A stretch of 63,873 nucleotides of DNA, filler included, from Octopus bimaculoides (lineage: Eukaryota), in the NCBI RefSeq assembly GCF_001194135.2. It is 7 parts of 6 records of this genome, joined end to end, with 100 filler letters (N's around TTAATTAATTAA, not from the genome) between each part and the next. Parts side by side here need not be neighbours in the genome. Positions count along the whole stretch, not along the records: positions 1 to 5,631 come from NC_068990.1; positions 5,732 to 26,330 come from NC_068994.1; positions 26,431 to 33,900 come from NC_068985.1; positions 34,001 to 42,389 come from NC_068993.1; positions 42,490 to 57,858 come from NC_068996.1; positions 57,959 to 62,253 come from NC_068991.1; positions 62,354 to 63,873 come from NC_068996.1. One strand, 5' to 3'. Within the stretch, counting starts at the first letter, position 1; each line of letters starts with the position of its first letter. Below are positions 365 to 63,717 of this stretch, one piece after another. The notes beneath the pieces were generated by a model. That model was not told the DNA's origin. It made no database searches and saw nothing but the letters and a program-made list of their open reading frames with translations. The translations under genes were made by a program, and so were the position numbers.

Positions 365-465
365 ACATATCCTCTTACAGCTATTTCAATTTAGCCTAAA
401 AATTAAATTACAATGATTAAATCATTGTATTAGGCAAAATCTCATCAGTGGGGTAGAAAAGATAT
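365..465 (-). ncRNA. Type I hammerhead ribozyme motif HH1 (core intact)
   Basis: Minus strand: CTGATGA (448-442), stem II GATTTTGCCTAA..TTAGGCTAAATT capped by a TACAATGATT/AATCATTGTA hairpin, then GAAATAGCTGTA (387-376); proximal stem I is weak. Confidence 0.68.
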
Positions 466-556
466 GCCATTTGGTTATTAGGTGTTCTGTTGTCAAATCA
501 TCTGAGCAGATTAGTCTTCTGAGAAGATTTCACATCACTACACCTAATTACCAAAC

Positions 557-661
557 AGTATGTCTTTTCTACTCCTCTGATGAGATTTTACCTAATACAA
601 TGATTCAATTATTGTAATTTAATCTTTAGCCTAAATTGAAACAGCTGTAAGAGAATATGCT
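557..661 (+). ncRNA. Type I hammerhead ribozyme motif HH2 (core intact)
   Basis: CTGATGA 577-583, long stem II 584-637, GAAAC-AGCT-GTA 638-649 (palindromic stem III, GUA site); stem I imperfect with a distal helix AGTATGT/ATATGCT. Confidence 0.72.
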
Positions 662-997
662 GGATTTTTGCAGTGAATAAATTATATTAATGCTACATCT
701 CCATTTGCTAAATTTTCTTTTCAATATTTATAAGCCAAGATTTATATTTAGACTTATTATCTAATGAATATTACTATTCACAAAAAAAATACGAGGCAAT
801 GAACCAGTAATTCATTGGAAATTATTATACCGTAATGAGGCTACTTTAACCTGTATATATACGCACGCTAGATCGCTAGCCACTAAACTTTTTTCTATAT
901 TCTCTTCCTGTTTACTTCTGTGTTTCTTTCTGTGAAAGGGAGTAGGCGCGAAATCGGAGTATATACATATACCACTATGATGATGATGATGATGATG

Positions 998-1034
<37 letters not shown>

Positions 1035-1196
1035 TACATATATATATGCATACATATATATATTTACATATATATATACATATATATACATATATATACA
1101 TATACATGTATATACATATATACATATATATATGCACATTTATATATATACATATATATACATATATATACATGTATATGTATATATATACAGGCA

Positions 1197-1286
<90 letters not shown>

Positions 1287-1357
1287 TACATATATATACA
1301 TATATATATATGCACACACATATATAACACACACATACATATATATAATCAAACACA

Positions 1358-1663
1358 CAGGGGTTGGACAAAATTACGGAAACACCTAGGATCATAGCAT
1401 CATAATTTTGAAATGTCTATAAACCCCTCAAAAGCTTATGTTTTTTTTAATTTATTATTAGTGTTGCTTAATATGTTTTGCTAAAATTACAGTTTCTTTT
1501 CAGATATCATCAGAAATGCTAACGAAAATTCATTAAAATGACAGAGCTATCGGACTTTCAAAGAGGTCAAATTGTTGGTGCTTGTAAGGCTGTTTTCTTT
1601 ATATTTAATTATTTACGTTATAGTTTTATTTACTCCATGTACCCAGACTTTGTGGACACCCTG
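1358..1663 (+). mobile_element. Tc1/mariner relic: Tc1-type left end with transposase start, joined to a different mariner-type TIR
   Basis: Starts CAGGGGTTGGACAAAATTACGGAAACACC; MTELSDFQRGQIVGA resembles a Tc1 transposase N-terminus; ends GTACCCAGACTTTGTGGACACCCTG|TA, a TIR also seen at about 44776. Confidence 0.65.
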
Positions 1664-2026
1664 TATATCCATCCTTTAATGCAGCTCTATCACACCACCA
1701 CTGCTCACATGTCTCACACTCTTTTACTCTTTATCCTCTCATCTCTTCCTCTTTCTCCCCCTCACCTCTCCCTTCCTTCTATCATTTTATCCTGACCACT
1801 AGCTAACACACCTCTTTCTTCACTTGTTTATTTTTTTTCCACTTCCTCCCATTCTTTCCCTGTCTTTGATTTGATCTTATAAACACATTCCCAATTTTTA
1901 AGTCACTCCAAAAAAAAAACACCTTCGATCGAATAACACAGTTTACAAGACTCTATGCTTGGAATGACCAAATATAAACACCATTAGAACTCACATAGAA
2001 GGTGCATGAAACATATATATATATAC

Positions 2027-2270
2027 ACCATTCTGCTTAAATAATGGAACTGCAAATACAATATCCTTATGCATCTCACTTCTATTTTCATTCCTTCACT
2101 TCCCTCTGTATTTCATATCTTCTCTACGATAATTATTACTCGAACATTTTCTCGCACCGTCTCTGGTGAAGGGATATTTAAAATATCCCGGAAACAGCTG
2201 TAAGACCTCTTTATAAATGCTCTGAAAACTATTTACAGCCTTGGATTTTTTTTATCTCATTCTGTCAATT
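2027..2270 (+). mobile_element. Short HHR-containing element (Penelope pLTR/retrozyme-like) between (TA)n tracts
   Basis: Non-microsatellite 245-bp block flanked on both sides by (TA)n and containing HH3. Confidence 0.55.
2159..2206 (+). ncRNA. Minimal type I hammerhead motif HH3 (core A6G, probably inactive)
   Basis: GTCT-CTGGTGA-A-GGGATATTT/AAATATCCC-G-GAAAC-AGCT-GTA-AGAC; stems I, II and III all pair. Confidence 0.75.
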
Positions 2271-2306
2271 CATATATATATATAGGGCCAATTAAAAAAC
2301 ACCCTT

Positions 2307-2641
2307 CAATCATCGGGCAATATGCCGTACTTGTGAAGACTTGTTGAAATAAGTGATAATGTAGTCGTGGCCGATGCCAGTGCCGCCTGACTGGCACTCG
2401 TGCCGGTGGCACGTAAAAAGCACCATTCGAGCGGGGTCGGGCGTGGTTCCCATGCCGGTGGGACGTAAAAAGCAGTCACTACACTCTCGGAGTGGTTGAC
2501 GTTAGGAAAGGCATGCAACTGTAGAAACCTTGCCAAATCAGATTGGAGAGTAGTGCAGCCTACCGGCTCGCCAATCCTCAATCAAACCGTCCAACCCATG
2601 CCAGCATGGAAAGTAGACGCTAAACGATGACGATGATGATA
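2307..2641 (+). mobile_element. SINE/non-autonomous element with RTE-type 3' tail (family 2)
   Basis: GTGCCGGTGGCAC modules, then ...GGAGTGGTTGACGTTAGGAAAGGCAT...AACCCATGCCAGCATGGAAAGTAGACGCTAAACGATGACGATGATGAT; many copies in the window. Confidence 0.85.
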
Positions 2642-2680
2642 TATACATATACATGTATATATATATAGATACATATACAT

Positions 2681-2713
<33 letters not shown>

Positions 2714-3988
2714 NNNNNNNNNNNNNNNNNNNNNNNNNNNNNNNNNNNNNNNNNNNNNNNNNNNNNNNNNNNNNNNNNNNNNNNNNNNNNNNNNNNNNNN
2801 NNNNNNNNNNNNNNNNNNNNNNNNNNNNNNNNNNNNNNNNNNNNNNNNNNNNNNNNNNNNNNNNNNNNNNNNNNNNNNNNNNNNNNNNNNNNNNNNNNNN
2901 NNNNNNNNNNNNNNNNNNNNNNNNNNNNNNNNNNNNNNNNNNNNNNNNNNNNNNNNNNNNNNNNNNNNNNNNNNNNNNNNNNNNNNNNNNNNNNNNNNNN
3001 NNNNNNNNNNNNNNNNNNNNNNNNNNNNNNNNNNNNNNNNNNNNNNNNNNNNNNNNNNNNNNNNNNNNNNNNNNNNNNNNNNNNNNNNNNNNNNNNNNNN
3101 NNNNNNNNNNNNNNNNNNNNNNNNNNNNNNNNNNNNNNNNNNNNNNNNNNNNNNNNNNNNNNNNNNNNNNNNNNNNNNNNNNNNNNNNNNNNNNNNNNNN
3201 NNNNNNNNNNNNNNNNNNNNNNNNNNNNNNNNNNNNNNNNNNNNNNNNNNNNNNNNNNNNNNNNNNNNNNNNNNNNNNNNNNNNNNNNNNNNNNNNNNNN
3301 NNNNNNNNNNNNNNNNNNNNNNNNNNNNNNNNNNNNNNNNNNNNNNNNNNNNNNNNNNNNNNNNNNNNNNNNNNNNNNNNNNNNNNNNNNNNNNNNNNNN
3401 NNNNNNNNNNNNNNNNNNNNNNNNNNNNNNNNNNNNNNNNNNNNNNNNNNNNNNNNNNNNNNNNNNNNNNNNNNNNNNNNNNNNNNNNNNNNNNNNNNNN
3501 NNNNNNNNNNNNNNNNNNNNNNNNNNNNNNNNNNNNNNNNNNGTGTCTCTAAAAATTTCACGGTAATTTTTGGCCATGCGACACCAAAAATCAACGATAA
3601 GAAAGGCACTTACGAATTCATCGGCTAGTGAGTTCAGGCATCTCACCTCAAAGAAATCTATTCCATGTGCGTCACAAATAGTCCCGTATGAAAAAAAGTC
3701 CCGTGTGGAGGGATTACGGTTTAACCATCTCACTTAGAGGTATCAAATATAAAATATACAAGAATAAGGGTAGGGAATCGTCAATTAATAATAGGATTAA
3801 TAATTAATAATTTTGCCAAGTAGTTCAGTATGAAAAAACCTTTATCGGTAAAACCATTTATCATCATAAATATAGCATTGAGTTGCTTCTCCAACATACT
3901 GAAAATTTAGTGTGCCATAAATATCGCCATCCGTTTAGAGAAAAATTTGTAGTTTAGAATCAGTAGTTCTTTGACTGCTATTTCTAAA

Positions 3989-4030
3989 TTTAAAGCCTAA
4001 CCGGGCCCATGAGCCTGGTTAGGCTTTAAA
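3989..4030. repeat. 18-bp stem hairpin inside an unclassified CpG-containing block
   Basis: TTTAAAGCCTAACCGGGC-CCATGA-GCCTGGTTAGGCTTTAAA, one mismatch. Confidence 0.8.
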
Positions 4031-4730
4031 AGGGCGCATTTATTTATACATATATATATAATGAAGTATTGAACTAAAATGAATTTGTGGTATTTGGTTC
4101 CGTCTCGGTTAGATCTTCTTACGGCCAGGCAAATTTTGTCTTTTTCCCATCAAAGGAAGGTAAGTAATTACGGCCAAAATTCTGGGATTGTTATGGGCAC
4201 TAAAACCCTTCAAATGCTCAAAGACAGCAGTTCAATGACAGAAACCAATAAAAGAATAACGACATAATTTTGTTTGCTTAGCTACAAATAATTTCCGTTG
4301 GATGAATATTTTGCTAGTTTAATGCTGAGTCCGAATTGGTTTAAACTTGCGATAGGCTAGGATCATATCCAAGAGGGTGTGGCATCTTTCAAACGCTTGA
4401 ACGACAGGAAAAACTGGAAAAAATTTCCGCATGCTATAACACTTGTCAGAAGTGGGAACAGGATAAACAGAATATAAAACGTGAGATATGTATAAAATTA
4501 ACATAAACTTTCAAAAACGCTTACAATCTCAAACATAAGTTTAATTTGTTATGACGAAAAAGAAAAGGCAGCACCTGACGTTTATATCTTTGCAGTGACG
4601 TTACCGATATAAACGAAGCAATAAAATTTCGGCTGAGAGTCGAAACAATGTTGGTGGTTCGATAGGCGAGTACTGACTGTTTTATTACAGTGTCTGCTAT
4701 TATAATCATAATGTTTTTTTCTAGCATACA

Positions 4731-5135
4731 GGCGTAGCTATGGGATAAGAAGTTTGCTTCCGAATCACATCGTTCCGGGTTCAGTTTCACTGCGTGGAAC
4801 CTTGACCAGGTGTCTTCTGCTGTAGCGTCGGGCCGACCAGAGCCTTGTGAGTGGATTTGGTTGACGGAAACTGAAAGAAGCCCGTCCTATATGTGTTATG
4901 TGCGTGTGTGTGTCTTGATTTACATCTGTATTTGTCCTCCACCAGCGCTTAACAACCGGTGGTGTTGTGTTTACGTCTCCGTAGACTAACGGTTCGGTAA
5001 AAGAGACCGATAAAATATGTACGAGGCTTTAGATAGAATAAGTACCGGGGCCGATTCGTTCGACTAAAATTCTTCAAGGCAGTGCTTCAGTATGGCCGCA
5101 GTCTAATGACCGAAATAAGTAAAGGATAAAAGATA
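4731..5135 (+). mobile_element. tRNA-derived SINE (family 1), full length
   Basis: A-box/B-box-like head GGCGTAGCTATGGG...GGGTTCAGTTTCAC, internal TG/TA tract, 3' half ending CAGTATGGCCGCAGTCTAATGACCGAAATAAGTAAAG; more than ten copies in the window. Confidence 0.85.
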
Positions 5136-5631
5136 CACAATGACGTCACACGTCTAGGATGCAATTACATCAGTTTAAACTGCCTCAGTAATTTATTGGC
5201 TCTATATTTGATAGACTTCAATAAGGAGAAGTTGACTGATAATAATAATAATTTTTTGTTGTGCGCCTTGGGTATGTGCTGTGGTTTGCTGTGGTGCTCT
5301 TATGTTTACTGTATTGAAAGTGTTTTGCGTAGAATGTGTGCAGTACCCAGTAGTGCAATTTTCTGTATGTTATATATATTTGTAAGTCCTGGTGTTTTTG
5401 TTATGTATTTGTCTGAAATTTTTTTTATTATACCTAAGGCACCTACTATGATCGGAATTGTTTTCTTTTAGAGAAACGTTGTCATCTGCTGGTATTGATA
5501 TATCAATTAGAAAGCATTTTTTTCTTCATGATCTTTGACAACTATATCTGGTCTATTTGCCTTAATTTCTCTATCTGTGTGTATTGGCATATCCTAGAGT
5601 ATGGTTGGTTTCTCGTTTTCTGTGACCTTTT

Positions 5632-5731
5632 NNNNNNNNNNNNNNNNNNNNNNNNNNNNNNNNNNNNNNNNNNNNTTAATTAATTAANNNNNNNNNNNNN
5701 NNNNNNNNNNNNNNNNNNNNNNNNNNNNNNN
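5632..5731. other. Artificial scaffold linker (44 N + TTAATTAATTAA + 44 N)
   Basis: Same 100-bp structure recurs at 26331-26430, 33901-34000, 42390-42489, 57859-57958 and 62254-62353; the 12-mer has stops in all six frames. Confidence 0.92.
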
Positions 5732-6050
5732 GTTATGGCTTTATTGATCAATAATTGATCTTTACAGCCGTATGAGCCCTTGCAGCATCCCTTCTGCTCT
5801 TCTGGAAACAGGTTGTTATTTTCCAGGTGTTTACTCAATCTCTGCGATATTATTGCAGTAAAGGCTTTGTAGATCGTAGGGAGACAGGTTATAGGTCTAT
5901 AGTTTTGTGGTTTCTCCGTTTCCGTGGATTTGGGGATTAAGATGGTTTTCCCTTTTGTGAGCCATTCAGGCATTGTCTCTGGATCTGCTATTATGTTGTT
6001 AAAGTTTTCTGCCAGCTTTTTATGCATTGCTGGCAGGTGTTTTAACCAGA

Positions 6051-6051
<1 letters not shown>
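5732..6051 (-). mobile_element. R4/Dong-like non-LTR retrotransposon RT fragment, 5'-truncated
   Basis: WLTKGKTILIPK..NYRPITCLPTIYK..PEEQKG..GCKDQLLINK RT motifs of restriction-like-endonuclease LINEs; 5' junction abuts (TAA)n. Confidence 0.85.
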
Positions 6052-6091
<40 letters not shown>

Positions 6092-7000
6092 TATTATTAT
6101 TATAATTATCATCATCATTATTATTATTACTGTATCACTAGTGGAACCTGTGAATATTTCATAGAATTAATGGTAAACCTATTGGATTATTTCTGAAAAC
6201 TTTATCCAAAAAACCTGAAAGCATAGCCTATCTTGTGCCTGTATGGAAAAATAGTTGCTCATCTGACATTCACTCTTATTTTTCCATTTCCCCATAAACA
6301 AAACAAAAATATCCTGTACACATGATACATTTTGTTAAATTGCATATATCTGCCATGTAAATGAGAGTGAATATTTCATGGAATTGCACTTATGCGGATG
6401 CTTTAAGTGATAGGTGATATAAAAAACTTAGTTCAATTAAAAAAAGATATATACTTTTCATGATCCAGTCACTACCACTACCTCCACCACCACTACCACT
6501 GCCATCACCACCGCCACCGCCACCGCCGCCNNNNNNNNNNCTTTTCATGATCCAGTCACTACCACTACCTCCACCACCACTACCACCACCACCAATTGGC
6601 TTGTATCACTCTCTCAGTACAAAACTAATGCTGTCCATCAGGTAAAGACAGACTAAGACATATTGGCATTAGTGTCACACTGCAGTGGATGGCTGGATGA
6701 TAGATTTGTTTATCTTTGCCCTAGGGTGATGTCACAGGTCACCATCTGGAAGTGATCTTTCATAGACATATATACACATTATTGGATGGCCATTGACTCT
6801 TATGAGTTACTTCTCCCTTTGTTGGGTTTTGTTTTTAGTCCTGCAGCGTGTCCAAAATCACCCTCCTCACTAAGCAAACTTGGTGGGGTTGCCAGTTTCA
6901 TCACTGACAACCTGACCATGCAACAAGTTGTACTGGAGTACATGTTACCTGTAGCATTGCAAAGTGACCTAACACACACTTACTATCAATATATATATAT

Positions 7001-7310
7001 GCTGAGACCTCCTTCGGTCATGACTGACCATGGGATTGCACCTAGAAAGTTACCCTCCCAGGCACAAGTCCTGGCAAAGTTGTTTATGGAAGACCAGCAG
7101 TCACCCATGCATACCAGCCTCCCCTCTCCATGCCACCAAGGAAAAAGCAAAGGCCAATACAGCTTGGCACCTGTGATGTCGCAACTCATTTCTACAGCTG
7201 AGTGAACTGGAGCAACATGAAATAACACAAGACACTGCCTGGTCTGGGATTCAAACTCACAACCTAGCGATTGTAATCTCAATGCTCTAACCACTGAGCC
7301 ATGTGCCTTC
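7001..7310 (-). mobile_element. tRNA-derived SINE (family 4) with CORE-like central block
   Basis: Minus strand TGGCTCAGTGGTTAGAGC (A box), GAGTTTGAATCCC (B box), CTCCAGTTCACTCAGCTGTAGAAATGAG. Confidence 0.75.
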
Positions 7311-7959
7311 ACACACACACACATATGTATGTATGTATGTATATATATATATATATATNNNNNNNNNNNNNNNNNNNNNNNNNNNNNNNNNNNNNNNNNN
7401 NNNNNNNNNNNNNNNNNNNNNNNNNNNNNNNNNNNNNNNNNNNNNNNNNNNNNNNNNNNNNNNNNNNNNNNNNNNNNNNNNNNNNNNNNNNNNNNNNNNN
7501 NNNNNNNNNNNNNNNNNNNNNNNNNNNNNNNNNNNNNNNNNNNNNNNNNNNNNNNNNNNNNNNNNNNNNNNNNNNNNNNNNNNNNNNNNNNNNNNNNNNN
7601 NNNNNNNNNNNNNNNNNNNNNNNNNNNNNNNNNNNNNNNNNNNNNNNNNNNNNNNNNNNNNNNNNNNNNNNNNNNNNNNNNNNNNNNNNNNNNNNNNNNN
7701 NNNNNNNNNNNNNNNNNNNNNNNNNNNNNNNNNNNNNNNNNNNNNNNNNNNNNNNNNNNNNNNNNNNNNNNNNNNNNNNNNNNNNNNNNNNNNNNNNNNN
7801 NNNNNNNNNNNNNNNNNNNNNNNNNNNNNNNNNNNNNNNNNNNNNNNNNNNNNNNNNNNNNNNNNNNNNNNNNNNNNNNNNNNNNNNNNNNNNNATATAT
7901 ATATATATATATACGCACACACACACACTTTTTGATACAACTTCATAATTCTCTAATTC

Positions 7960-9230
7960 TCTGCTGCTCCCATTCTTCCAGGCTTTCAGGCCTGCCTCTT
8001 TGTTTTTATAGCTGTGCCTATCTCATTGTTCCAACAGCACATCTGTAGACTGGAACTTTGCACCAGCCACAAATTTGATTTGTACCCTCAACAGGTTGTT
8101 GTTTCATAGGAACTTATAGTTATTCTCTCTGTTATACAGCTCTTTCTTCTCCTTCTCTATATTTCTGACTTTTCAACAGATCTTTAAACTTCTATATGCT
8201 CCAGATTGGTTAGTGTATCTGAGTCTTTCTACCTCTAAGTCTGATGTCACTAACCTCTAACTTCAGTTAGGTTGTACATTCTTCGTCATACAAATATGTT
8301 ATATTCACAACAAACCAACTACCTTGTTTTCTGGAGAGGATGTAGTCAATCTGGCTTGTGTGGTCACCATATTGACAAATGATCAAGTGAATAGCTGGTT
8401 TCCTGCATCACAGAACTCCAAGAGCCTTTTACCTCCTCATCTCTAGAACCAAATCTTTAGCCTCTATGTACCCAGTGGTTCCCAAAGTGGGCAGGACTGT
8501 CCCTTGGGGGGATAGTGGAAAGACCCAGTGGAGGATGGCTTTGAAGAAAAGTAGGGTGATAATGGGGTGGCCAAAAGTGGGTAAACTCAAGTTTAGAAAA
8601 TAGAGTTTAAAAATCAATATGAAAAAAGTTGTTTAAGAAAGCTAACTTCAAGCAAGAGCAGAGAGCAAAAATAAATAACTAAAAAACTCCAAAAGTTTAT
8701 TGATGAAGCTGGTCATAAAATTTGCGAGAGAATTCCCCAGAAAGATGAAAACATCTGACACTGAACAAGTCAACAATAATGATGGCAATAACAACAGCAA
8801 CAACAAAATGAAAAGAACACACACACACGTGTGCAAGTGTGCACCAAGAAATCCGTTGGAGTGTTCTTCAGCATCTTTATTGAAGTCACTTATCATGTAG
8901 GTTATTTGTCATTGAGCTAAATTTGCAGAAGGTCGTGCAAAATCATTCCTTCCATTCTTCTGCTAGTTCAGATTGAGGAGCATATGCTGAGATAAATGCA
9001 GCTGCAATATTTTCTGAGCCTAGTCTCAGCTTAATTAGCCTGTCACATACTCTGACTGCCTTGCTCCTTCAACAAAAGTATGCCTACACTATTGCTATTA
9101 CCTACCCAGAAGAATTTATACCTTTGTTCTTTTCCCAAGAGGAGTTTGGTTGTACTCAGTACACATCTATTATCCTTCTGCTCTAGCATTTCAAAAATCT
9201 CCTTAGACTTACCTTTCATTGTGTTAAAAA
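7960..9230 (-). mobile_element. Decayed RTE LINE APE-endonuclease fragments, interrupted by an hAT-like piece
   Basis: NTMKGKSKEIFEMLE..KFFWVGNSNSVGILL (9050-9230) and an RLVTSDLEVE-like tract at about 8225-8260; CAGTGGTTCCCAAAGTGGG hAT-type TIR at about 8474. Confidence 0.55.
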
Positions 9231-9924: not shown

Positions 9925-10057
9925 TCATGGGAGACGCATTCAGATAGATATTTTATAGTGTAAAAAGGATTTATTTTATTTGTTTTTGCACTTGGTCCAC
10001 TTTCTCTGTATTACCTCTATTATAATTCCATTTACAAACTAGTGACTTTTAAAAAAA

Positions 10058-49127: not shown

Positions 49128-49169
<42 letters not shown>

Positions 49170-51641: not shown

Positions 51642-51672
<31 letters not shown>

Positions 51673-52130
51673 AAACTGACCCTTTGCTTTTTCTGTGCCC
51701 TCCTACTTAACATCACAATTGTGATCCTGATGATGATGATCATTGTGATCATCATCATCATCATCATTATCATCAAGGCAGCGAGCTGGCAGAATCGTTA
51801 GCACGACGGGCGAAATGCTTAGCGGTATTTCGTCTGCCGCTATGTTCTGAGTTCAAATTCCGCCGGGGTCGACTTTGCCTTCCATCCTATCAGGGTCGAT
51901 TAAATAAGTACCAGTTATGCACTGGGGTCAATGTACTCCCTACTTACTCCCTTCCCCCAAATTTGAGGCCTTGTGCTTCCAGTAGAGAGGATTATCATCA
52001 TTATCATCTTTCCTTTTTATTGCCCACAAGGGGCTAAACATAGAGGGGACAAACAAGGACAGACAAAGAAAGAAGGTCATCATCATTATCATCATCATTT
52101 GTTTGGTTTTCCTTCTGATTTCCTACAGGA

Positions 52131-52192
<62 letters not shown>

Positions 52193-52897
52193 NNNNNNNN
52201 NNNNNNNNNNNNNNNNNNNNNNNNNNNNNNNNNNNNNNNNNNNNNNNNNNNNNNNNNNNNNNNNNNNNNNNNNNNNNNNNNNNNNNNNNNNNNNNNNNNN
52301 NNNNNNNNNNNNNNNNNNNNNNNNNNNNNNNNNNNNNNNNNNNNNNNNNNNNNNNNNNNNNNNNNNNNNNNNNNNNNNNNNNNNNNNNNNNNNNNNNNNN
52401 NNNNNNNNNNNNNNNNNNNNNNNNNNNNNNNNNNNNNNNNNNNNNNNNNNNNNNNNNNNNNNNNNNNNNNNNNNNNNNNNNNNNNNNNNNNNNNNNNNNN
52501 NNNNNNNNNNNNNNNNNNNNNNNNNNNNNNNNNNNNNNNNNNNNNNNNNNNNNNNNNNNNNNNNNNNNNNNNNNNNNNNNNNNNNNNNNNNNNNNNNNNN
52601 NNNNNNNNNNNNNNNNNNNNNNNNNNNNNNNNNNNNNNNNNNNNNNNNNNNNNNNNNNNNNNNNNNNNNNNNNNNNNNNNNNNNNNNNNNNNNNNNNNNN
52701 NNNNNNNNNNNNNNNNNNNNNNNNNNNNNNNNNNNNNNNNNNNNNNNNNNNNNNNNNNNNNNNNNNNNNNNNTCTATTCTTTTTGGGCTGGCCTAGAAAT
52801 GGTATTTAGCAAAAAACAAAATTGAATTTCTGTTGTAGATATTTAATTCTTAGTGCAATTGTTAATGTTGTTGCTGTTGTTATTGTAGCAGCAGTAA

Positions 52898-52952
<55 letters not shown>

Positions 52953-53198
52953 GGTGGTGGTGGTGGTAGTAGTAGTAGTTGCTGCTGTTTGTAAAATATT
53001 TCTACTGTTATGTTGAAATGTTGCAGTTCTTGTAGCTGTTTCTTCTGAAGTTGTCGCTGATATTTCTACAGCTGCAGCAATTGCATCGGTTATGTTGTTG
53101 TTGTTGCTAAAGCTGTTTAGTTTTATTTTTTTATTTTTTGTTATTGTATTCTCCCCCCACCACCCACTACAACCACCACCTTCCCCTCTAATGGCAGA

Positions 53199-53229
<31 letters not shown>

Positions 53230-55025
53230 CGTATAGTAATTTGTTTATTTATTTCTTGGTGAGGTGAATCTTCAGACAGGTTAATTCCAGGTTCTGAAAA
53301 TAAGGGACACTTTTAAGTCAATAGCATAAAAGAGAGAGTGGGTCACATGGAGGTACCTTCAGCAGTGGTAGAAGTAAATAGAAGATATTGAAATTGTGTG
53401 TGTGTGTGTGTGTTGGAAATTGGAGGGTGGAAAAAAATATCTAGAGATATTCTTTCATTCTTATATTTCTTTATTTGTTTCAGTCATTTGACTGTGACCA
53501 TGCTGGAGCACCGCCTTTTGTTGAACAAATTGACTCCAGGACTTATTTNNNNNNNNNNNNNNNNNNNNNNNNNNNNNNNNNNNNNNNNNNNNNNNNNNNN
53601 NNNNNNNNNNNNNNNNNNNNNNNNNNNNNNNNNNNNNNNNNNNNNNNNNNNNNNNNNNNNNNNNNNNNNNNNNNNNNNNNNNNNNNNNNNNNNNNNNNNN
53701 NNNNNNNNNNNNNNNNNNNNNNNNNNNNNNNNNNNNNNNNNNNNNNNNNNNNNNNNNNNNNNNNNNNNNNNNNNNNNNNNNNNNNNNNNNNNNNNNNNNN
53801 NNNNNNNNNNNNNNNNNNNNNNNNNNNNNNNNNNNNNNNNNNNNNNNNNNNNNNNNNNNNNNNNNNNNNNNNNNNNNNNNNNNNNNNNNNNNNNNNNNNN
53901 NNNNNNNNNNNNNNNNNNNNNNNNNNNNNNNNNNNNNNNNNNNNNNNNNNNNNNNNNNNNNNNNNNNNNNNNNNNNNNNNNNNNNNTTTTGAGGGGGTGG
54001 GGTGGATAATGTTATTTAAATGATATTGACTGGTTGAATTTGCAAAGTTGAGGTTATTGAATTTAAGAAAAAAATAAAATCATCATTATTATCATCATCA
54101 TCATCACCACCACCACCACCATCATCATCATACCACTGCTATTATTACAATCATCGTTATCATACTATAGTGGTTAATTAGTACCGTCTGTTCAGTTTAA
54201 TATGTCCTAATTTAAAAATTTTTTTCTTAGTAATATCATCATCATCATCATCATCATCACTACTACCACCACCATCATCATCATCATCACCACCACCATC
54301 ACCACTATTATCATCATCATCATCACCATCATCATCTGTCCACTTTCCCATGCTTGCATGGATTGGACAAATTTTTCATGTGCCATTTTGTGTGTGTGTG
54401 AATTGTTATAGATATGTTATGCGTTATTATTTGATGGGTTTTTTTTTTGTATTTTCTCTTAATTACAATGGTTGTATTCCCTTCCGTAAGTAAAGCACCG
54501 AACCGATTTCACAGTACAGTAGAGTGCTACAATGTCAGTGGTGTCTGTAAATATTTAGAGAAGTATAGCATAAGGAAGGAACCTGTACATGGCTACTTGG
54601 CCTTCCAGAAATGGCAGCCAAACGTCCCCCAAATCTTATCCTACTGTCATACTTAAGAAGAGCAAACATTGGCTATAGTAGCCCTGGATAAGTTTGAAAA
54701 GATGAGATTGTGCCAACTTAAATGTTTTTGATTGCAAATCTGTTCAACCAGGTCTAGCCTAGGGTTAAACAACAGCCAAGCTGACATTTACAGATTAATG
54801 ATAACTTGCAGGACCTGTGAAAATTCCACAGCCTAAGTCAGCACATTTGGGAGCATTATGTTAGTATATTAAACATAAGCAAGGAGTTTTAAAAAATTCA
54901 TTTGATATCCTACCATTTAATAAGGTATTGCATATTTACATCCTTGTAATATGTTTGGCAGATATGACGTGCTTTATATCTTAAGGAAATAAAAAGATGA
55001 ATTAAAGATAAAACTTATATATATA

Positions 55026-55522
55026 AGGCACAAGAGTGGCTGTGTAGTAAGTAGCTTGCTTACCAACCACATGGTTCAGGTTCAGTCCCACTGCGTGGCA
55101 CCTTGGGCAAGTGTCTTCTATTATAACCTCGAGCCAACCAAAGCCTTGTGAGTGGATTTGGTAGACGGAAACTGAAAGAAGCCTATCATATATATATATA
55201 TATANNNNNNNNNNNNNNNNNNNNNNNNNNNNNNNNNNNNNNNNNNNNNNNNNNNNNNNNNNNNNNNNNNNNNNNNNNNNNNNNNNNNNNNNNNNNNNNN
55301 NNNNNATATATATATGTGATGTGTGTGTCTGTGTTTGTCCCCCTAGCATTGCTTGACAACCGATGCTGGTGTGTTTATGTCCCCGTCACTTAGTAGTTCG
55401 GCAAAAAGAGACCGATAGAATAAGTACTAGACTTACAAAGAATAAGTCCCAGGGTCGATTTGCTCGACTAAAGGCAGTGCTCCAGCATGGCCGCAGTCAA
55501 ATGACTGAAACAAGTAAAAGAG
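55026..55522 (+). mobile_element. SINE family 1 (another full copy at 56448-56820)
   Basis: Full head, internal microsatellite and 3' half. Confidence 0.88.
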
Positions 55523-55554
55523 TGTATTGATTAAATATTTATTATTTACAATTT

Positions 55555-55740
55555 TGTTAGATGTCTGTCCCTGTGCTTTATTCATCGTCAGAGAGTAGGG
55601 CAGCCTTACAGGGAACTGAACTCGTTCTGAATCAAAATGAAGGATGGAGTCATTTGGAACCAGCTTCAGGCTAGCTCTTAGGAAGTGCATTCCTTCTTGT
55701 GCACCTGTTTATCAAAGTGGCTTCAATGCAATTATTGTGA
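55555..55740 (-). mobile_element. Helitron Pif1-helicase C-terminal fragment
   Basis: RVQFPVRLPYSLTMNKAQGQT resembles RRQFP..AMTINKSQGQT. Confidence 0.8.
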
Positions 55741-56326
55741 AGACTGACACATCCTACATGTATAATGTATAATGGCTGTGATTAAGATTATTATCAATAT
55801 TATTATCATCATTATTGTCATCCTTGTCGTTATTGCTATCGCCATCATGTTTGCCATTATCATTATCATCATCATCTTTGTTTTAACATCAATGTTTTTG
55901 TTTTTTTTTTGGTGTCACCTATTTCTAGCCAACATTCTTAATGTTTTTTTTTTTTTGGTAGTTTGGCCAAAGATAAAAGAAAAGAAGGAGAAAAAAAAAA
56001 AGAAAAGAAGCCAGATTTGATATGAATGAAGTGTTAGTCATGTTATTTATCATCAACTAGCTAATCTGCTTGTTGCAGCATACAACAGGCCTGCTTCAAT
56101 GGAATATATATATAAAGCTTTGTGTAGCTACTGTGATGGCAGACTTATTTCTGTGTTTGTGTGTCATTTTTAGATAGAGAAGAAGCTTTTCCACAATCTA
56201 ATTAGTTGATCGATATTGGTGACAGTATATTATATTGCAAATTCTGCTTAGAAAATTATACTCTTTTCCCAATCACTGTCAGATGACATGTTCACTGTAC
56301 AGTGTTTATTTTGATGTGCTTGTGTA

Positions 56327-56419
<93 letters not shown>

Positions 56420-57189
56420 TTACACACACACACAATATATAGTATATGCGCAGGAGTGTCTGTGTGGTTAGTAGCTTGCTTACCAACCACATGGTTCCGG
56501 CTTCAGTCCCACTGCGTGACACCTTGGGCAAGTGTCTTCTACTATAGCCTCGGGCCGACCAAAACCTTGTGAGCGGATTTGGTAGATAGAAACTGAAAGA
56601 AGCCTGTCGTATATGTATATGTATATATATATGTGTGTGTGTGTATGTTTGTGTGTCTGTGTTTGTCCCCCGTAACATCACTTGACAACCGATGCTGGTG
56701 TGTTTATGTCCCCATAACATAGCGGTTCAGCAAAAGAGACCAATAGAATAAGTACCAGGCTTACAAAGTCCCAGGGTCGATTTACTCGACTAAAGGCGAT
56801 GCTCCAGCATGGCCACAGTAGAAGAGTATATAATGATAGACAACAAAGTGAATGTTAAAGTGATAAACAGATAATTATTTATCATTGGCAATGATTAGCA
56901 AGTCTAAAAAAGAATTTTAAAAATCCACAAAGACACACACACGCACCTTTTACTTGTTTCACTCATTGGACTGTGGCCATGCTGGGGCACTTTCTTGAGG
57001 GATTTTATCAAACATATCAACCTTAATACTTATTTATTTTTAAGTTTGATACTTTTTCCATTGGTCTCTTCTGCTGCACCACTAAGTTACAGGAACATAG
57101 ACAAACTAACTCTGGTTGTCAAGTGGTGGCAGGGAGACAGAATCCAAACGTAAAAACACACATGTATGAATATATATATGTGTGTGTGT

Positions 57190-57673
57190 ATGTGATTGCA
57201 CATGAGGACAGCTGCATTAAGAAGTGCCAAGCTCTAATTGTGGAGGATACCTATGGAAGGGGTAGACCCAGGAAGACATGGGACGAAGTGATGAGAAAGA
57301 ATCTTTGGGTGCTGGGCCTCACTTAGGAAATGACATGGCGGTTTGCTGTACGTGTCAAGCTAAGTAAAATTACGGTCTTCCATACAAACAGACTCATCCT
57401 TTCAGGTACCAGTGCCTCATAAAGAGCACCCATGCTGGTGCTGTGTAAATGCACCCACACTGGTGCTGCATTAGCATACCCATGTCAGTGGCATGTAAAA
57501 AGCACTCAGCACACACTGTTAAGTGGTTGGGGTTAGGAAGGGCATCCAGCCATAGAAACCACGCCTCAACAGACAGCTGGAGTCTGGACAGCTCCCTGCT
57601 AGACAGCCCTGTGTCAAACCATTCAAACCATGCTAGCATGGAAAGTCGACATTAAAGAAGATGATGATGATGA
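57190..57673 (+). mobile_element. RTE LINE 3' end (coding tail + UTR)
   Basis: EDSCIKKCQALIVEDTYGRGRPRKTWDEVMRKNL followed by the tail shared with family 2. Confidence 0.85.
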
Positions 57674-57792
57674 TAGGCTCTTGTCTTATGTGCCATGTGG
57701 TAGGACTGAACTCAAAGCCTTGTGATTGGGAAACAAACTTCTTATCACACAACCATACCTGTGCCTATATATGTATGAATGTAATGTATGTG

Positions 57793-57843
<51 letters not shown>

Positions 57844-58461
57844 TTCTTTTTCTTTCTTNNNNNNNNNNNNNNNNNNNNNNNNNNNNNNNNNNNNNNNNNN
57901 NNTTAATTAATTAANNNNNNNNNNNNNNNNNNNNNNNNNNNNNNNNNNNNNNNNNNNNATATATATAGGAACTCATATATGCAGGTACACATGTGTATAT
58001 ATACATAACATACATAAATGTGAGCATAGATTTGTATGTAGATCAAGATACACATGTACGTGCAAAACTAAACTAGACACACACATGTAAATACACTCAG
58101 GTATGCACATAGATATATGTGTGTGTGTGTGTGTGTGTGTGTATGTCTGTCCCCCCAACATTGCTTGACAACCGATGCTGGTGTGTTTATGTCCCTGTAA
58201 CTTAGTGGTTCGGAAAAAGAATATGACAGAATAAGTACGAGGCTTACAAAGAATAAGTCCTGGGTTCGATTGGTTTGACTAAAGGCAGTGCTCCAGCATG
58301 GCCACAGTCAAATGACTGAAACAGGTAAAAGAATATATATACATATATACACATACACATATACACACATACACACATGCATATATGTATATATATTAAT
58401 ACATATATTTGTTATTTATATGTACCAATACACCCATACATACATATATATATATTATATA

Positions 58462-59203
58462 TCAGGTCATCCCATAAGTTCTGTCGGAATTTTGAATAAA
58501 GAAAACAAGTGATCATATGTTATATTTAATTGAAATTTAATCAGCAATGTACTTTCCTTGATTATCTATGACTTCGTTCCATCTACTTACAAGCTTTTTA
58601 ATCCCATCAATGTAAAACTCTTTTGATTTCAAAGCAAAGAACTCTGAAATGTCAGTTTCAACCTCCTCCTGCTTGGGAAAGTTATGTCCCCCAAATGATT
58701 CTGTAAACTACGAAACAAATGGTAGTCTGAAGGAGCAAGGTCAGGAGAATAAGATTGATGAGGAATGTTTTCCCAACCAAGCTCTTCGATCTTCTGTGAT
58801 GTGATCTTTGCAGTGTGGTGTCATGCATTGTCCTGGTGAAACATCACTCCTTTTTAATTCACTAAAGTGGGTCTTTTTTCTTCAAAGCTTGGTTCAAACA
58901 CTCTAATTAGGTGGTAACAATTCAAAGTGAATTACTCCTTTGCAGTCCCACCAGATAGAGAGAAGAACCTTTTTCCCTTGAAGTTCCCTTCTTGGTTGTG
59001 GCTGAGCTTTTTCCCTTTTACCAAGCCACTGTTTACGATATCTAACATTTCGATAGAAGATCCATTTTTCGTCACCACTCACAAGTCTATCCAAAAAGGG
59101 TGAAATGAGTTCGCAAGAATGGGGAGAAGAACAAATGTCAACTTGGGATTTGCAGTTGCTTTTGGACAATTCATGAGGCACCCATTTTCCAAGTCTAGGA
59201 ACC
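58462..59203 (-). mobile_element. Mariner element, 3' half with TIR
   Basis: MPHELS, VSGDEKW, SIWWDCKG, HQDNA, SPDLAP-like; end TA|TCAGGTCATCCCATAAGTTC. Confidence 0.9.
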
Positions 59204-59362
59204 NNNNNNNNNNNNNNNNNNNNNNNNNNNNNNNNNNNNNNNNNNNNNNNNNNNNNNNNNNNNNNNNNNNNNNNNNNNNNNNNNNNNNNNNNNNNNNNNN
59301 NNNNNNNNNNNNNNNNNNNNNNNNNNNNNNNNNNNNNNNNNNNNNNNNNNNNNNATATATAT

Positions 59363-59401
<39 letters not shown>

Positions 59402-59647
59402 TAGATATATATATATAGGTGTATAAAGGTTGAATGTGGATCCGTCCTTTAATTAGATGCTTCCAAAAAAGATTTCTAATGTTGATTCTTCATACTTTGC
59501 TGGGAGTTTACAGGCATAAATTTGAGAAGATATGGAAGTAGTACTTGTATATAATGTATGGTGAATTTATGGAATGAAGTTCCATAAATCCCATCAATTT
59601 TGTTAAGAATGGAGGAAACAAGTTGTTAAAATTTATAAAAAGTTTAA

Positions 59648-59742
59648 TTCTTGCAGACAATCGTTTCATACAGAGATATAATAATATAAATTCATGACTG
59701 AATTAAATTAAATAAATATTGACGTACTCTTCAGTGCAGGAA
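59648..59742 (-). ncRNA. Type I hammerhead motif HH8 (core intact, GUC)
   Basis: Minus strand TTCCTGCA-CTGAAGA-GTAC..AT-rich..GTAT-GAAAC-GATT-GTC-TGCAAGAA; stem I 8 bp with one mismatch. Confidence 0.8.
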
Positions 59743-61427
59743 GGAATGAAACCATAATACAAGGGACTCAAAAAAGAATAGAGCAGAAAAAATTGGATCT
59801 AGGATAGTCATATTGGTATCCATGTGAGAAAGAGATGGGAGTCATGTTGGATATTGAACCATAACTAACGGCTTCAATGGTTATTTGAAGATATAAGTAA
59901 AGAGGTATCGGAGGTGTTCCCGCTATAGATGAGTGTGGAAATTAGAGTCATAGCTCCATATATGTAGTGCAGGGCACTAAGTAGTAGAAATGTTCAATGG
60001 GAAGACAATACCAAATATAAATTAAAATTAAAGCTAACCATTGAAATCAGTATGTAGTATAATATATTTTTTTTAAATCTATACAGAAGAATAAAGTTTA
60101 GCGTGAAAAAGTTGCATATAAGAAGCTAATACTAGATAGTTAACATAAACAAATGGCAAGAAATAGAGGAATGAGAATGAGTTAAAGAGAAAGGATGATG
60201 TATATAAAGGACTCATGTTTACATAAAAAAATCATATTAAGTAACATGTATTAATAATAAAGGAGAAAATAAGTAAAAACAGAGAAGCAGTTATTAATAT
60301 TACAATTAAAGTAGAATGTACTTTCAGTGTTTATAAAGATAAAAATGTGAATTTAAAAATAATAATATGAAGTTAGAAAGACCAAAATAACTGTAGGGGA
60401 GATAAATGAGCAGAGAAAAAGATGAGTAAAAAGATAAAAATTTAGATAGGGATGTGTGGGTTACACAGAAGGCATATTTTAGTATATATATAAAAAAGGG
60501 TTATTTCAGAGGTATTAATCCAGGTTAGTATTATGTGAAGGATATAGAATGGCAGTATGGTCGTAATGGTATTCGAGTTGTAGGGGTGCCATGCCAGTAT
60601 AAACCACGAGTAGGAGGGTACACATAAGTGTACAAAGATTTACACATAATATAGAAGAAAGATAATCTAATAAGGAGAAGAATGTGTGTATGATTAGTCA
60701 TGCGTGTATAGAGGCATATTTACACATGAGTATATAGATACAGGAATTCGTGTAGATATACAATTAAGGTATACATTAAAAAAAAACTGTACAAATATAC
60801 CCATACATGTGCAAAAAGAAGGGCACACAGGCACACAATAAATTGTATATATATTTATATATATATATATATGCGAACATACATATATACGCAGATACAC
60901 ACGTTCATATTAATATACATGTCTTACTTACATATATGCATAAAAATAATCACATATACATATATATAAGTTTATACACATGGGTACATATAAGATCAAT
61001 ACCTAGATATGTATACATGGACGTGGACATGTAGATTACCTTAAAGTCATGCATGTGCATACATGTGTACATAAAACCAGTAGTAAAGTATACGTAATTA
61101 TTAGGTATACTAACTAATAGCATAAACAAATGATAGTTAGAATAGGTATGTTAAGAGCGGGGAGTACATGGACACAGTATACAAATAAAATACAAAAATG
61201 TATAGGTATATTACATACTAAAGAAAGATATAAGTTCCTATATCCAAACATGTGAAGGGAAAAAGTATAGGAAGACACAGATAAATTGATGGCCCTATAT
61301 ATAGGGGGTCATGCAATTGCCAGAAGGAAATGTTAAAGAAAGAATCTACAAAGATAGTATAAGATATAATAATGTAAAGGGGATATTTAAAAAAAAATTC
61401 AAACTAAACAAAAGGCGAGTAAAGAGT

Positions 61428-61815
61428 TATTTTAGATTAATGAATAGGAATTTGATCATGTGTATACATAAAGAAATTTTTTCATCCCTAGTATAAACCA
61501 AATTGCCATTCATTCTCAATATGTTATAGCTTTCTTCTAAACATAACCTACAAATGTTATTATTATTTGTATAAGAGGGGGCAGAAGATAGGATTTTCCA
61601 AGAAATGGAGAAATTAATACTGTTTCTTAGGAGGTGCCAAATATTTTTAGATAGCCCTGTACTATTCTCTTTTCGATGGTCCCTAAAAGAAGATTTATGG
61701 TCAGAAATTCTCGATTTAATTGAGTTCTGGGTGCAACAGAGGTGTCCTGAGTTATAGTAGTTGCTTGGTATACAACTTCTTTCATTTTACAATTTCTATC
61801 TGCTTCACAGGCATT
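61428..61815 (-). mobile_element. Penelope-like element (Neptune-type) GIY-YIG C-terminal fragment
   Basis: My translation: CKMKEVVYQA (frameshift) IKSRISDHKSSF..STGLSKNIW..SWKIL..CRLCLEE..CIHMIKF*. Confidence 0.75.
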
Positions 61816-62159
61816 ATATAAATATATATGTATATACATATACACATTATATAAATATACATATGTATACACATATACACACTCACACACCTATATACAT
61901 ACATACATATAAATAAACTCACAATTATGTAGATAAATATGTAGATACATATATAAATATTTATAGAGAGATAGATCTAGATTGTAAAATTAGATGTCTA
62001 AATACAAGTTGATCAAATACAGTTCCTTAGGTTCAGTTGGATTAATCAGAGTTGTGGGTGTTATGTTCACATTAGTTATGTATGGGCAGGATTGTAATAT
62101 GTGAATGTGTGTTTAGTTGTGTTTAATTTATTTATAATGCGCTCCTTTGTTAACATTTT

Positions 62160-62253
<94 letters not shown>

Positions 62254-62428
62254 NNNNNNNNNNNNNNNNNNNNNNNNNNNNNNNNNNNNNNNNNNNNTTA
62301 ATTAATTAANNNNNNNNNNNNNNNNNNNNNNNNNNNNNNNNNNNNNNNNNNNNATATATGGGTTACTTAGAGCTTAAAATATATCATTGATCATTACAAA
62401 AATATGGCAACTCTTTTCATTGCTATTT

Positions 62429-63490
62429 AAAGGAGAACTGGAAGAGGTATTTGGACGATTGCTTTATACTTTGGAAAGACAGCATGGACAAACTCCTCGA
62501 TTTCAAAATAACGCTTAACAATATTAATAGCAACATACAATTCACTATGGAACACAGCAGTAAACAACTCCCTTTTCTTGACATCCTAATTAAAGTAGTC
62601 AATAACCACATAGAAACAGACATCTTCTACAAACCCACAGATTCTAAACAATACCTATTATTTAACTCATGCCACCCCAAACACATAAAAATTAATATAC
62701 CTTATAATCTAGCGGAAAAAATCTGTACCATAGTTTCGGACTCCGATACTCGTAAACGAAGACTCCTTGAACTCAGATCAATACTACTCAAAAGATATCA
62801 CCCAATATCTTTAATAAATGATGGAATCAAACGAGCTAAAGAAATAGATATACAAACATTAAGGGAAGTCAACCAAAATACTAAACCAGGCTTAAAAGTA
62901 CTCGCATACATCTCCACACATAACCCTAGAAACAACGAAGCCTTTAACGTTATCATCCAAAATCTTCCCATTCTAACAAGAGATAAAACAATGAACAAAA
63001 TTATCAAAAGTAAAATGCAACCTAAATCACCGAAAAAAATATTAACCAGTGCAAGACTGTATCCATTTACAACAGAACCAAAAGTAAAAAAATGTGGTCG
63101 ACCTAACTTTGGAACTTGACCCACCTTTTGGAGGGTTCTGAGTTCCACTTTAAACAAGGTGAAATATTTAAAATTAAGTCAAATTTCACCTGTGCCTCGG
63201 AAAATCTAATCTATGCCATTACATGCTTAGGGTGCAGTAATAACTATATTGGCCAAACAGGAAAATCACTCCGCAGAAGAACTACTCTCCACAAAGAACA
63301 AATCCACCACCCACATTACAGACAGATGCAGGTCAGTGGACACATAGACAGATGTGCGAGGAATCTTAATCCTAATTTCCTAATTTTTCCCTTCTATCAA
63401 TGTTCACAGAACACATCAACACAACAAAGAATGAATAAAGAGGCAATTTTCATCAATAAATATCTTCCTCAACTAAATATAAATACATAA
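62429..63490 (+). mobile_element. Penelope-like element: RT C-terminus + GIY-YIG endonuclease (one frameshift)
   Basis: WKRYLDDCFILW, LPFLDI, FYKPTDSKQYL..SCHP, NLIYAITC..NYIGQT..R..H, KE..FINKY.PQLN. Confidence 0.92.
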
Positions 63491-63678
63491 CATAATATAG
63501 AACACCACTAATTTTCCATTTAATATCACTAACCCCCATACACGCCATACACCATTCACACTACAAATCCAGATCTACCCTAATTGCACCAAATCCAGAA
63601 CTACTTACCTCCCTTACACATAATCTTTTTACTAAGGGACTAATAGACATGACACCGTTCAGAAATCGGTGTATACTC

Positions 63679-63717
63679 AAAGCAATGACTAGTAATATTA
63701 CGAAACCGGTATGCTTT
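63679..63717 (+). ncRNA. Degenerate minimal hammerhead HH9 in the Penelope 3' region
   Basis: AAAGCA-ATGACTA-GTAATATTAC-GAAAC-CG-GTA-TGCTTT; all three stems pair, core has C3A and G8U. Confidence 0.65.

What the first reader, a model, noticed from the sequence alone, without database searches (positions are those of the whole stretch)
365..63717. Dense, structurally diverse hammerhead population (about nine motifs in 64 kb)
Seen: HH1 to HH9 at 365, 557, 2159, 33008, 34990, 37387, 46369, 59648 and 63679 on both strands; six keep intact cores. Stem II ranges from about 10 nt to about 55 nt and the stem III loops differ (AGCT, GATC, GAGT, TCGG, TTTGAA, GATT, CG), which points to several independent families. 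Two lie downstream of PLE ORFs on the same scaffold and strand. Inference: HHR-bearing retroelements are a major repeat class here that protein-based annotation misses. The motifs lie on several artificially joined scaffolds, so this reflects genome-wide abundance, not a physical cluster.
Basis: partly seen in the sequence, partly recalled or inferred. Interest (0 to 1): 0.75.

Follow-up and report, generated by a model that had tools for sequence, protein, structure and literature searches.

The report
Abundant Penelope hammerheads, one core-swapped lineage
The nine motifs are real hammerhead-ribozyme-shaped sequences from eight multi-copy repeat families, likely mostly tail ends of Penelope-type jumping genes (a known arrangement, up to three or four times sparser in random genome samples than in this window), and one lineage has swapped a core base pair twice while keeping it paired, which suggests it still self-cuts, though cutting is untested.

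Summary
All nine motifs are present and are type I hammerheads from eight dispersed repeat families. Genome-wide abundance is far above chance: 51,845 core-pattern matches against 9,653 controls, and 13 strict motifs in 692 kb of random DNA against 0 in five shuffles. That gives about 19-30 per Mb, or an estimated 40,000-60,000 motifs. The window's ~120-150 per Mb overstates this up to 3-4-fold. HH3, HH8 and HH9 lie in 3' ends of Penelope-like elements; HH6 is a retrozyme-like tandem unit. This architecture is published (PMC4209133). The notable part is HH9. It is not decayed: its family carries A3-U8 instead of C3-G8 (88 of 100 listed copies), a nested subfamily switched to G3-C8, sister families share A3-U8, and the closest outside relatives keep C3-G8. 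This scan noted purine-3 cores before in other genomes. Within families, most changes break pairs (326 pair-breaking single changes against 23 compensatory doubles). RNA reads show no cleavage-site ends, and cleavage is untested.

The parts
306..719 (.). Inverted pair of one element's 3' end, holding HH1 and HH2 in divergent orientation
   Evidence: 87% arm identity; 13 of 21 unique family loci hold such a pair, but the query held both arms
365..460 (-). HH1: exact core, 54-nt domain II, palindromic stem III with a U-G wobble, stem I mismatched
557..660 (+). HH2: same family as HH1, exact core, short or interrupted stem I
2159..2206 (+). HH3: window copy has A6G, family majority is CUGAUGA; end of a likely Hydra-clade PLE 3' UTR
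   Evidence: two family loci share colinear DNA to about -2,400 that includes a same-strand GIY-YIG-like hit
33009..33110 (-). HH4: window copy has U4C, family majority is CUGAGGA; 73-nt domain II; no ORF link found
34992..35075 (-). HH5: exact core, stem I decayed in this copy (family GACC/GGTC), A-G mismatch at the base of stem II; only a weak upstream Hydra-like hit
   Evidence: E 2e-7, 25% identity, one locus fetched twice as L173/L489
37338..37656 (+). ORF-less retrozyme-like unit (350-374 nt) holding HH6 at about 37390-37445, bounded by (TA)n
   Evidence: head-to-tail dimer with 374-nt period in L105, partial tandems in L086, L088, L099
46333..46481 (.). Fold-back element; HH7 (46367-46413, minus) plus a decayed mirror copy; old family
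   Evidence: 23 of 23 unique loci are fold-backs, but the query held both arms; 5 of 45 rows keep an intact core
59652..59738 (-). HH8: intact core and stems, 60-nt domain II
59356..61890 (-). 5'-truncated likely Hydra-clade PLE: GIY-YIG remnant (61430-61890), about 1.7 kb of 3' UTR, HH8
   Evidence: family loci share DNA continuously from HH8 up to 61378-61391 (L213, L221) and in pieces to 61816; clade motifs read by eye against PMC8557442 section 11; no Pfam hit
62358..63487 (+). Broken RT + GIY-YIG ORF of a Neptune/Nematis-type PLE
   Evidence: PF01541 E 8.7e-07; 86-90% identical to a 509-aa open copy in L333; 426 homologues, named ones including oysters and mussels
63679..63717 (+). HH9: A3-U8 core, 6-bp stem I, 10-nt domain II, palindromic ACCGGT stem III, predicted cut after 63711

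Best explanation
These motifs are type I hammerhead-shaped sequences in multi-copy repeats, likely mostly 5'-truncated ends (pseudo-LTRs) of Penelope-like retroelements plus at least one retrozyme-like tandem unit, predicted to self-cleave mainly as dimers in the active parent elements. Shown: each motif belongs to a dispersed family with a shared 3' end and variable 5' ends; HH8, HH9 and HH3 continue upstream into PLE coding remnants; inverted partners always point away from each other. Inferred mechanism: a tandem PLE transcript carries two motifs whose palindromic stem III lets them pair, cut and release unit-length RNA. The element's RT and GIY-YIG nuclease then copy it from its 3' end into AT-rich or (TA)n DNA, often with truncation and a 5' inversion. 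The genomic copies then decay neutrally, so most are likely inactive. In the HH9 lineage the C3-G8 tertiary pair became A3-U8 and later G3-C8, and both forms then multiplied, which is best explained by selection on the ribozyme fold in active elements.
For: Families of at least 40 scored copies each, 243-2,443 first-look candidates. Core columns are better conserved than other non-CpG columns in 7 of 8 families (0.945-0.981 against 0.870-0.943). Stem III is palindromic or nearly so in most family majorities, the dimer signature in PMC4209133. Inverted partners: 55 of 167 unique loci divergent, 0 convergent; 19 of 123 without the two biased queries. HH9 pattern with positions 3, 7 and 8 left free: 150 genome matches, 0 controls; of 100 listed, 88 A-U, 7 G-C, 1 G-U, 4 mismatched, 0 C-G (hand count). 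All 11 G3-C8 copies form one clade with positions 3 and 8 masked (support 0.81). The purine-3 elements form a clade (UFboot 99) whose sister group (97) has C3-G8. In 97 loci from other organisms all 32 motif hits have a Watson-Crick 3-8 pair: 28 C-G, 2 A-U (one weak), 1 U-A, 1 G-C. Stem I covaries across the lineage.
Against: No ORF link was shown for HH1/2, HH4, HH6 or HH7, and only a weak one for HH5. Within families, 326 single changes break pairs against 23 compensatory doubles, many of them CpG-type; HH7 shows no core excess (0.835 against 0.827). Three RNA runs from one study gave low counts in both read orientations and no begin/end pile-up at predicted cut sites. PMC11167929 found PLE hammerhead cleavage dispensable for insertion in vitro, and no RNA-seq ends at the site. 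A generic purine-3 pattern gave no excess over its control (1,551 against 1,535), although that control lacks the depleted CpG. The G3-C8 switch is one event, and all purine-3 ingroup sequences come from one genome.
Confidence: 0.85

Rival explanations
1. Most families are ORF-less non-LTR retrozymes that make abundant circular RNAs and borrow a PLE reverse transcriptase.
For: HH6 has a 350-374-nt unit with head-to-tail copies, and unit end-to-start joints occur in 4, 4 and 1 RNA reads. Four families have no ORF link.
Against: Same-strand pairs occur in only 4 of 167 loci. HH3, HH8 and HH9 run into PLE coding sequence. The joint also stands in contigs of a run not on record as RNA, and 73-78% of laid reads run on into unlike sequence.
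Confidence: 0.2
2. The motif no longer catalyses in these lineages. It is kept as a folded signal, such as a protein-binding or priming site, and the 3-8 swap reflects structure only.
For: No cleavage-site ends in RNA. Hammerhead mutants do not affect PLE insertion in vitro (PMC11167929). Low in vitro activity of minimal PLE hammerheads (PMC4209133).
Against: The invariant catalytic positions are kept while N7 varies freely (C, A, T in HH9). The 3-8 pair is a tertiary contact of the active conformation (PMC3088659 passage).
Confidence: 0.2
3. The density is chance motif matching in AT-rich, low-complexity DNA.
For: Loose patterns have real background: 9,653 control matches, and 27-40 shuffle hits at the lowest relaxed threshold.
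Against: Strict score of 22 or more: 13 real against 0 in five shuffles of 692 kb. Each window motif is a family feature.
Confidence: 0.01

Closest known systems
Minimal type I hammerheads in pseudo-LTRs of metazoan Penelope-like elements (Cervera and De la Pena 2014, PMC4209133)
   Same: Type I topology, tiny palindromic stem III, extra nucleotide after A9 in several families, many consensus families per genome, mostly solo truncated copies, opposite-strand pairs 100-700 bp apart, a 3-8 covariation.
   Different: The 3-8 variant reported there is U3-A8; here A3-U8 and G3-C8 run through a lineage. Domain II reaches 54-73 nt in four families. HH3, HH5 and HH6 have a 1x1 mismatch in place of G10.1-C11.1 (also seen in L388, L394, L468). 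The estimated 40,000-60,000 motifs exceed the 2,000-9,000 given there, but descriptors differ.
Hydra-clade PLEs, including Hydra-1_Obim (Craig et al. 2021, PMC8557442, section 11 and supplement)
   Same: [quoted passage not shown] The HH3-linked ORF piece resembles Hydra-1_Obim by eye. Hammerheads and (TA)n targets are reported for the clade.
   Different: The Hydra-1_oBim hammerhead row in File S2 differs from all window families, and four short window-family motifs had no match in that supplement (line breaks could hide one). 3' UTRs here are about 1.4-1.7 kb.
Neptune/Nematis-type EN+ PLEs (as described in PMC8557442)
   Same: RT, then a CX4CX2C linker, then a C-terminal GIY-YIG with internal cysteines (L333, L334); hammerhead about 200 nt after the stop.
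   Different: Purine-3/pyrimidine-8 core. Not placed in a tree with named reference elements.
Metazoan non-LTR retrozymes (PMC7229834; bioRxiv 10.64898/2026.07.22.740005)
   Same: HH6: ORF-less unit of 350-374 nt, type I hammerhead with 6-bp stem I and 4-bp stem II, monomers and dimers.
   Different: Mostly solo or inverted copies; no abundant circular RNA shown here.

Membership tests
Type I hammerhead ribozyme | Core CUGANGA...GAAA...UH with a Watson-Crick 3-8 pair | tested here: met
   All 8 family majorities have it, HH9 with A3-U8; window copies HH3 and HH4 each carry one core change
Type I hammerhead ribozyme | Stems I-III around the core, ends joined in stem I | tested here: met
   Family majorities pair; stem I is weak in HH1/2 (one C-A mismatch in 4 pairs)
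Type I hammerhead ribozyme | Covariation in stems | tested here: inconclusive
   Weak within families (23 compensatory doubles against 326 breaking singles); clear between families of the HH9 lineage
Type I hammerhead ribozyme | Site-specific self-cleavage after N17 | not testable with these tools
   No in vitro test; RNA reads show no pile-up
Rfam hammerhead families | Covariance-model match | tested here: not met
   0 gathering hits in the window; no hammerhead hit at E<=10 for HH3, HH6, HH9
EN+ Penelope-like element end (HH9) | RT plus C-terminal GIY-YIG upstream in the same element | tested here: met
EN+ Penelope-like element end (HH8, HH3) | GIY-YIG or RT remnant upstream, same strand, colinear in several loci | tested here: met
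EN+ Penelope-like element end (HH1/2, HH4, HH5, HH7) | Coding remnant upstream in the same element | tested here: inconclusive
   None, or single weak hits, in about 20 loci per family and a few extended loci
EN+ Penelope-like element end | Shared 3' end, variable 5' truncation, 5' inverted copy | tested here: met
   (55 divergent, 0 convergent)
EN+ Penelope-like element | Full-length copy with two pseudo-LTRs in this genome | tested here: inconclusive
   Five extended HH9 relatives were all 5'-truncated; seen only in the outside relative L389
Non-LTR retrozyme (HH6) | ORF-less 150-450-nt unit in head-to-tail repeats, each with a type I hammerhead | tested here: met
   L105 dimer, 374-nt period; 2 of 22 unique loci hold same-strand pairs
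Non-LTR retrozyme (HH6) | Abundant circular and linear unit RNA | tested here: inconclusive
   147-300 reads per about 12 million; the joint also stands in contigs; library selection not known

The most novel reading that the evidence does not exclude
A whole Penelope-like lineage runs an active hammerhead with a purine at position 3 and has changed the core tertiary pair twice (C3-G8 to A3-U8 to G3-C8) while still transposing. All four Watson-Crick pairs occur naturally in PLE hammerheads, so C3-G8/U3-A8 descriptors miss whole lineages, and this genome, probably an octopus, carries one of the densest and most varied hammerhead populations yet counted.
Probability: 0.5. Interest if true: 0.58.

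Novelty: new variant of a known kind. Interest (0 to 1): 0.42.

Why it matters
The abundance extends a known pattern to this genome with a measured figure of about 19-30 motifs per Mb. The core swap gives natural, phylogenetically ordered evidence that PLE hammerheads are selected for the catalytic fold, which is open because cleavage looked dispensable in vitro (PMC11167929). It offers a ready test set (A3-U8, G3-C8, G3-U8 and a C3-G8 outside relative with the same stems) and shows that standard searches undercount these ribozymes.

Tried and rejected
Rfam: 244 matches at E<=5; the 150 shown held no hammerhead family and were almost all miRNA models, on microsatellite-like sequence in the 10 alignments shown; 94 were not shown. 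None reached gathering. The first HH5 search matched only a neighbouring repeat and was repeated with a tighter query. One search timed out and was rerun faster. The generic purine-3 count was uninformative against its control; by hand, 52 of its first 100 rows belong to the two purine-3 groups. The random sample held no A3-U8 hit, so purine-3 motifs are a small share of the total. Window family profiles found few relatives in the random 692 kb (0 for HH1/2, HH6, HH8, HH9; 1 each for HH3 and HH5; 3 for HH4; 7 for HH7), so no window family dominates. The run search listed no holder on record as RNA. Papers not held: Lunse et al. 2017, Hammann et al. 2012, Przybilski and Hammann 2007, Seehafer et al. 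2011. Searches for a natural A3-U8 or G3-C8 report listed none, but those unseen papers and their supplements may hold one. Rejected: chance; a physical cluster; HH9 as a decayed core; the window density as a genome figure.
Full report
Setting. The window is a pack of seven stretches (joints). The six that hold motifs map to C10, C5, C13, C16 (two) and C11 of G000, a 2.34-Gb genome. The organism is probably an octopus; this is inferred from mollusc homologues, a by-eye likeness to Hydra-1_Obim and earlier scan notes. Six of seven stretches hold a motif. How the stretches were chosen is unknown.

Observation. All nine motifs are present with the stated loops. Six have an exact core. Domain II spans 10-73 nt. 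HH1 and HH2 are the arms of one inverted element. Each motif belongs to a dispersed family: the DNA searches gave 243-2,443 first-look candidates, of which 40 were scored each time. Family majorities restore CUGANGA for HH3 and HH4 and stem I for HH5. Rfam does not detect these motifs.

Density. I fetched 80 evenly spread 10-kb chromosome stretches, 691,839 non-N bases. A strict descriptor gave 16 hits, 13 of them at score 22 or more, against 0 at that score in five local shuffles: 19 per Mb, 95% interval 10-32. A relaxed descriptor, written after seeing the window's motifs, gave 23 (background about 2.4; 30 per Mb, interval 18-46) against 7 in the window's 60,123 bases (116 per Mb); it scored HH4 at 18 and missed HH5. 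The window is enriched on the relaxed test (P 0.005-0.008) and not on the strict one (P 0.31). A genome-wide pattern with an exact core and domain II of 8-38 nt gave 51,845 matches against 9,653 controls. Minus-strand sites are partly listed twice (14 doubles in the first 100 rows, hand count), so the forward-strand excess doubled gives about 37,000. Assuming about 2.0 Gb of non-N sequence, the estimate is 40,000-60,000 recognisable motifs. Published counts, with other descriptors: about 9,000 in Xenopus tropicalis, 4,000 in coelacanth, 2,000 plus 1,300 minimal motifs in Schistosoma (PMC4209133); over 6,000 in a coral, about 5,000 in a mussel, 126,247 in axolotl (PMC7229834). The number here is high but of the same kind.

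What carries them. HH9 lies about 200 nt after the stop of a broken RT + GIY-YIG ORF. Its relatives share the 3' end and differ in 5' truncation. Better-preserved copies show a CX4CX2C linker, which PMC8557442 gives for Neptune and Nematis. HH8 shares DNA with its relatives across about 1.7 kb up to a GIY-YIG remnant with Hydra-clade marks read by eye. Two HH3 loci are colinear to about -2,400, including a same-strand GIY-YIG-like hit, and a third has a Hydra-like piece upstream. HH6 is an ORF-less 350-374-nt unit with head-to-tail copies spaced by (TA)n, like non-LTR retrozymes. HH1/2, HH4 and HH7 gave no clear ORF link, and HH5 only a weak one. Inverted partners are divergent in 55 of 167 unique loci and never convergent; without the two queries that held both arms the figure is 19 of 123. 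This matches the 5'-inverted copies described for PLEs (PMC8557442).

Selection. Core columns are better conserved than other non-CpG columns in seven of eight families, but pair-breaking single changes (326) far exceed compensatory doubles (23), with 15 broken doubles (rows include the window copies and a few duplicates). Covariation shows between lineages.

The core swap. A pattern leaving positions 3, 7 and 8 free found 150 HH9-type sites and 0 controls. Of the 100 listed, 88 are A3-U8, 7 G3-C8, 1 G-U, 2 A-A, 1 A-G, 1 U-U and none C-G (hand count). The seven G3-C8 loci are the same PLE, 79-88% identical to the window stretch. With positions 3 and 8 masked, all 11 G3-C8 copies among 52 sequences form one clade inside the A3-U8 copies (FastTree 0.81). 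A second group of A3-U8 families, 53-66% identical in protein, turned up (27 of the first 100 rows; HH9 family 25) and lies downstream of PLE ORF remnants. Stem I covaries across these families. In 97 related loci from metagenome and genome contigs, all 32 motif hits had a Watson-Crick 3-8 pair. A protein tree of 34 of 35 loci puts the purine-3 elements in one clade (UFboot 99), sister to five C3-G8 elements (97), with a separate A3-U8/U3-A8 pair further out. Caveats: the ingroup all comes from one genome, rows were projected on an ingroup query, the root is a midpoint, and the G3-C8 switch is a single event. U3-A8 is in print as natural (PMC3088659, PMC4209133). An engineered G3-C8 partly rescues a PLE hammerhead (PMC11167929). 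From recall, Przybilski and Hammann 2007 found any Watson-Crick pair tolerated in two type III ribozymes. Searches listed no natural A3-U8 or G3-C8 report, but four key papers were not held. This scan noted A3-U8 families in other genomes; those notes are unchecked.

Expression. Three RNA runs of one study, about 6% of each read, gave 240, 300 and 147 reads on an HH6-family unit and 174, 121 and 92 on the HH9 3' end, in both orientations, with no pile-up at the predicted cut sites. Unit end-to-start joints (4, 4 and 1 reads) also occur in contigs of a run not on record as RNA, so circles and tandem transcripts cannot be told apart.

Mechanism. Shown: motif anatomy, family membership, three PLE links, truncation and inversion pattern, the 3-8 swaps. 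Inferred from PMC4209133 and PMC11167929: dimeric, possibly protein-assisted cleavage of tandem transcripts, and copying by the element's RT and nuclease into AT-rich DNA. Untested: cleavage and circles.

Papers seen. PMC4209133: parts 1-2 of 4 and three supplement passages (file 1 not searchable). PMC11167929: parts 1-2 of 4. bioRxiv 10.64898/2026.07.22.740005: parts 1-2 of 5. PMC8557442: passages, section 11 and supplement search hits. PMC7229834, PMC3088659, PMC6765202 and PMC3884650: passages. Lunse 2017, Hammann 2012, Przybilski 2007 and Seehafer 2011: nothing seen.

Verdict. A real, known class at high density that the window overstates, with one worthwhile variant: a purine-3 hammerhead lineage with a nested second swap. 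Interest 0.42.

Noticed in passing
window 10046-12538 (+): Uninterrupted 830-aa Hsp70-family ORF (PF00012, E 3.8e-178), HSP110-like by recall, with no intron in the reading frame.
   Followed up: no
L134, L135, L147, L266, L284; G000 C1 rows: The most frequent hammerhead family in the random sample and in the first rows of the genome-wide list (minimal, no loop III) is absent from the window.
   Followed up: no
L433:1969, L453:117, L440:2216: PLE hammerheads from other organisms with A3-U8, G3-C8 and U3-A8 cores, separate from this genome's lineage.
   Followed up: partly
L389:58 and L389:3757: Full-length-looking PLE with identical C3-G8 hammerheads 3.7 kb apart and the same stem III as HH9; a good control construct.
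   Followed up: partly
HH3, HH5, HH6 families; L388, L394, L468: A 1x1 mismatch (A-G, C-A or U-U) closes stem II in place of G10.1-C11.1 as a family-wide state.
   Followed up: partly
HH9 loci L296-L325: 11 of 30 pattern-selected copies begin within about 40 nt upstream of the motif, suggesting a preferred 5' end (hand count; the selection requires the motif).
   Followed up: no
window 45103-45149 (-): A further remnant of the HH7 family without the core.
   Followed up: no
window 58903-59202 (-); 27964-28639 (+); 55436-55708 (-): Mariner transposase fragment (PF01359), a non-LTR element end with a weak zf-RVT hit, and a Helitron-like helicase fragment (label recalled, no Pfam hit).
   Followed up: no
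L468-L484; P0031, P0043, P0060, P0079, P0080: PLE-like ORFs in records labelled as bacterial assemblies, likely host contamination.
   Followed up: no
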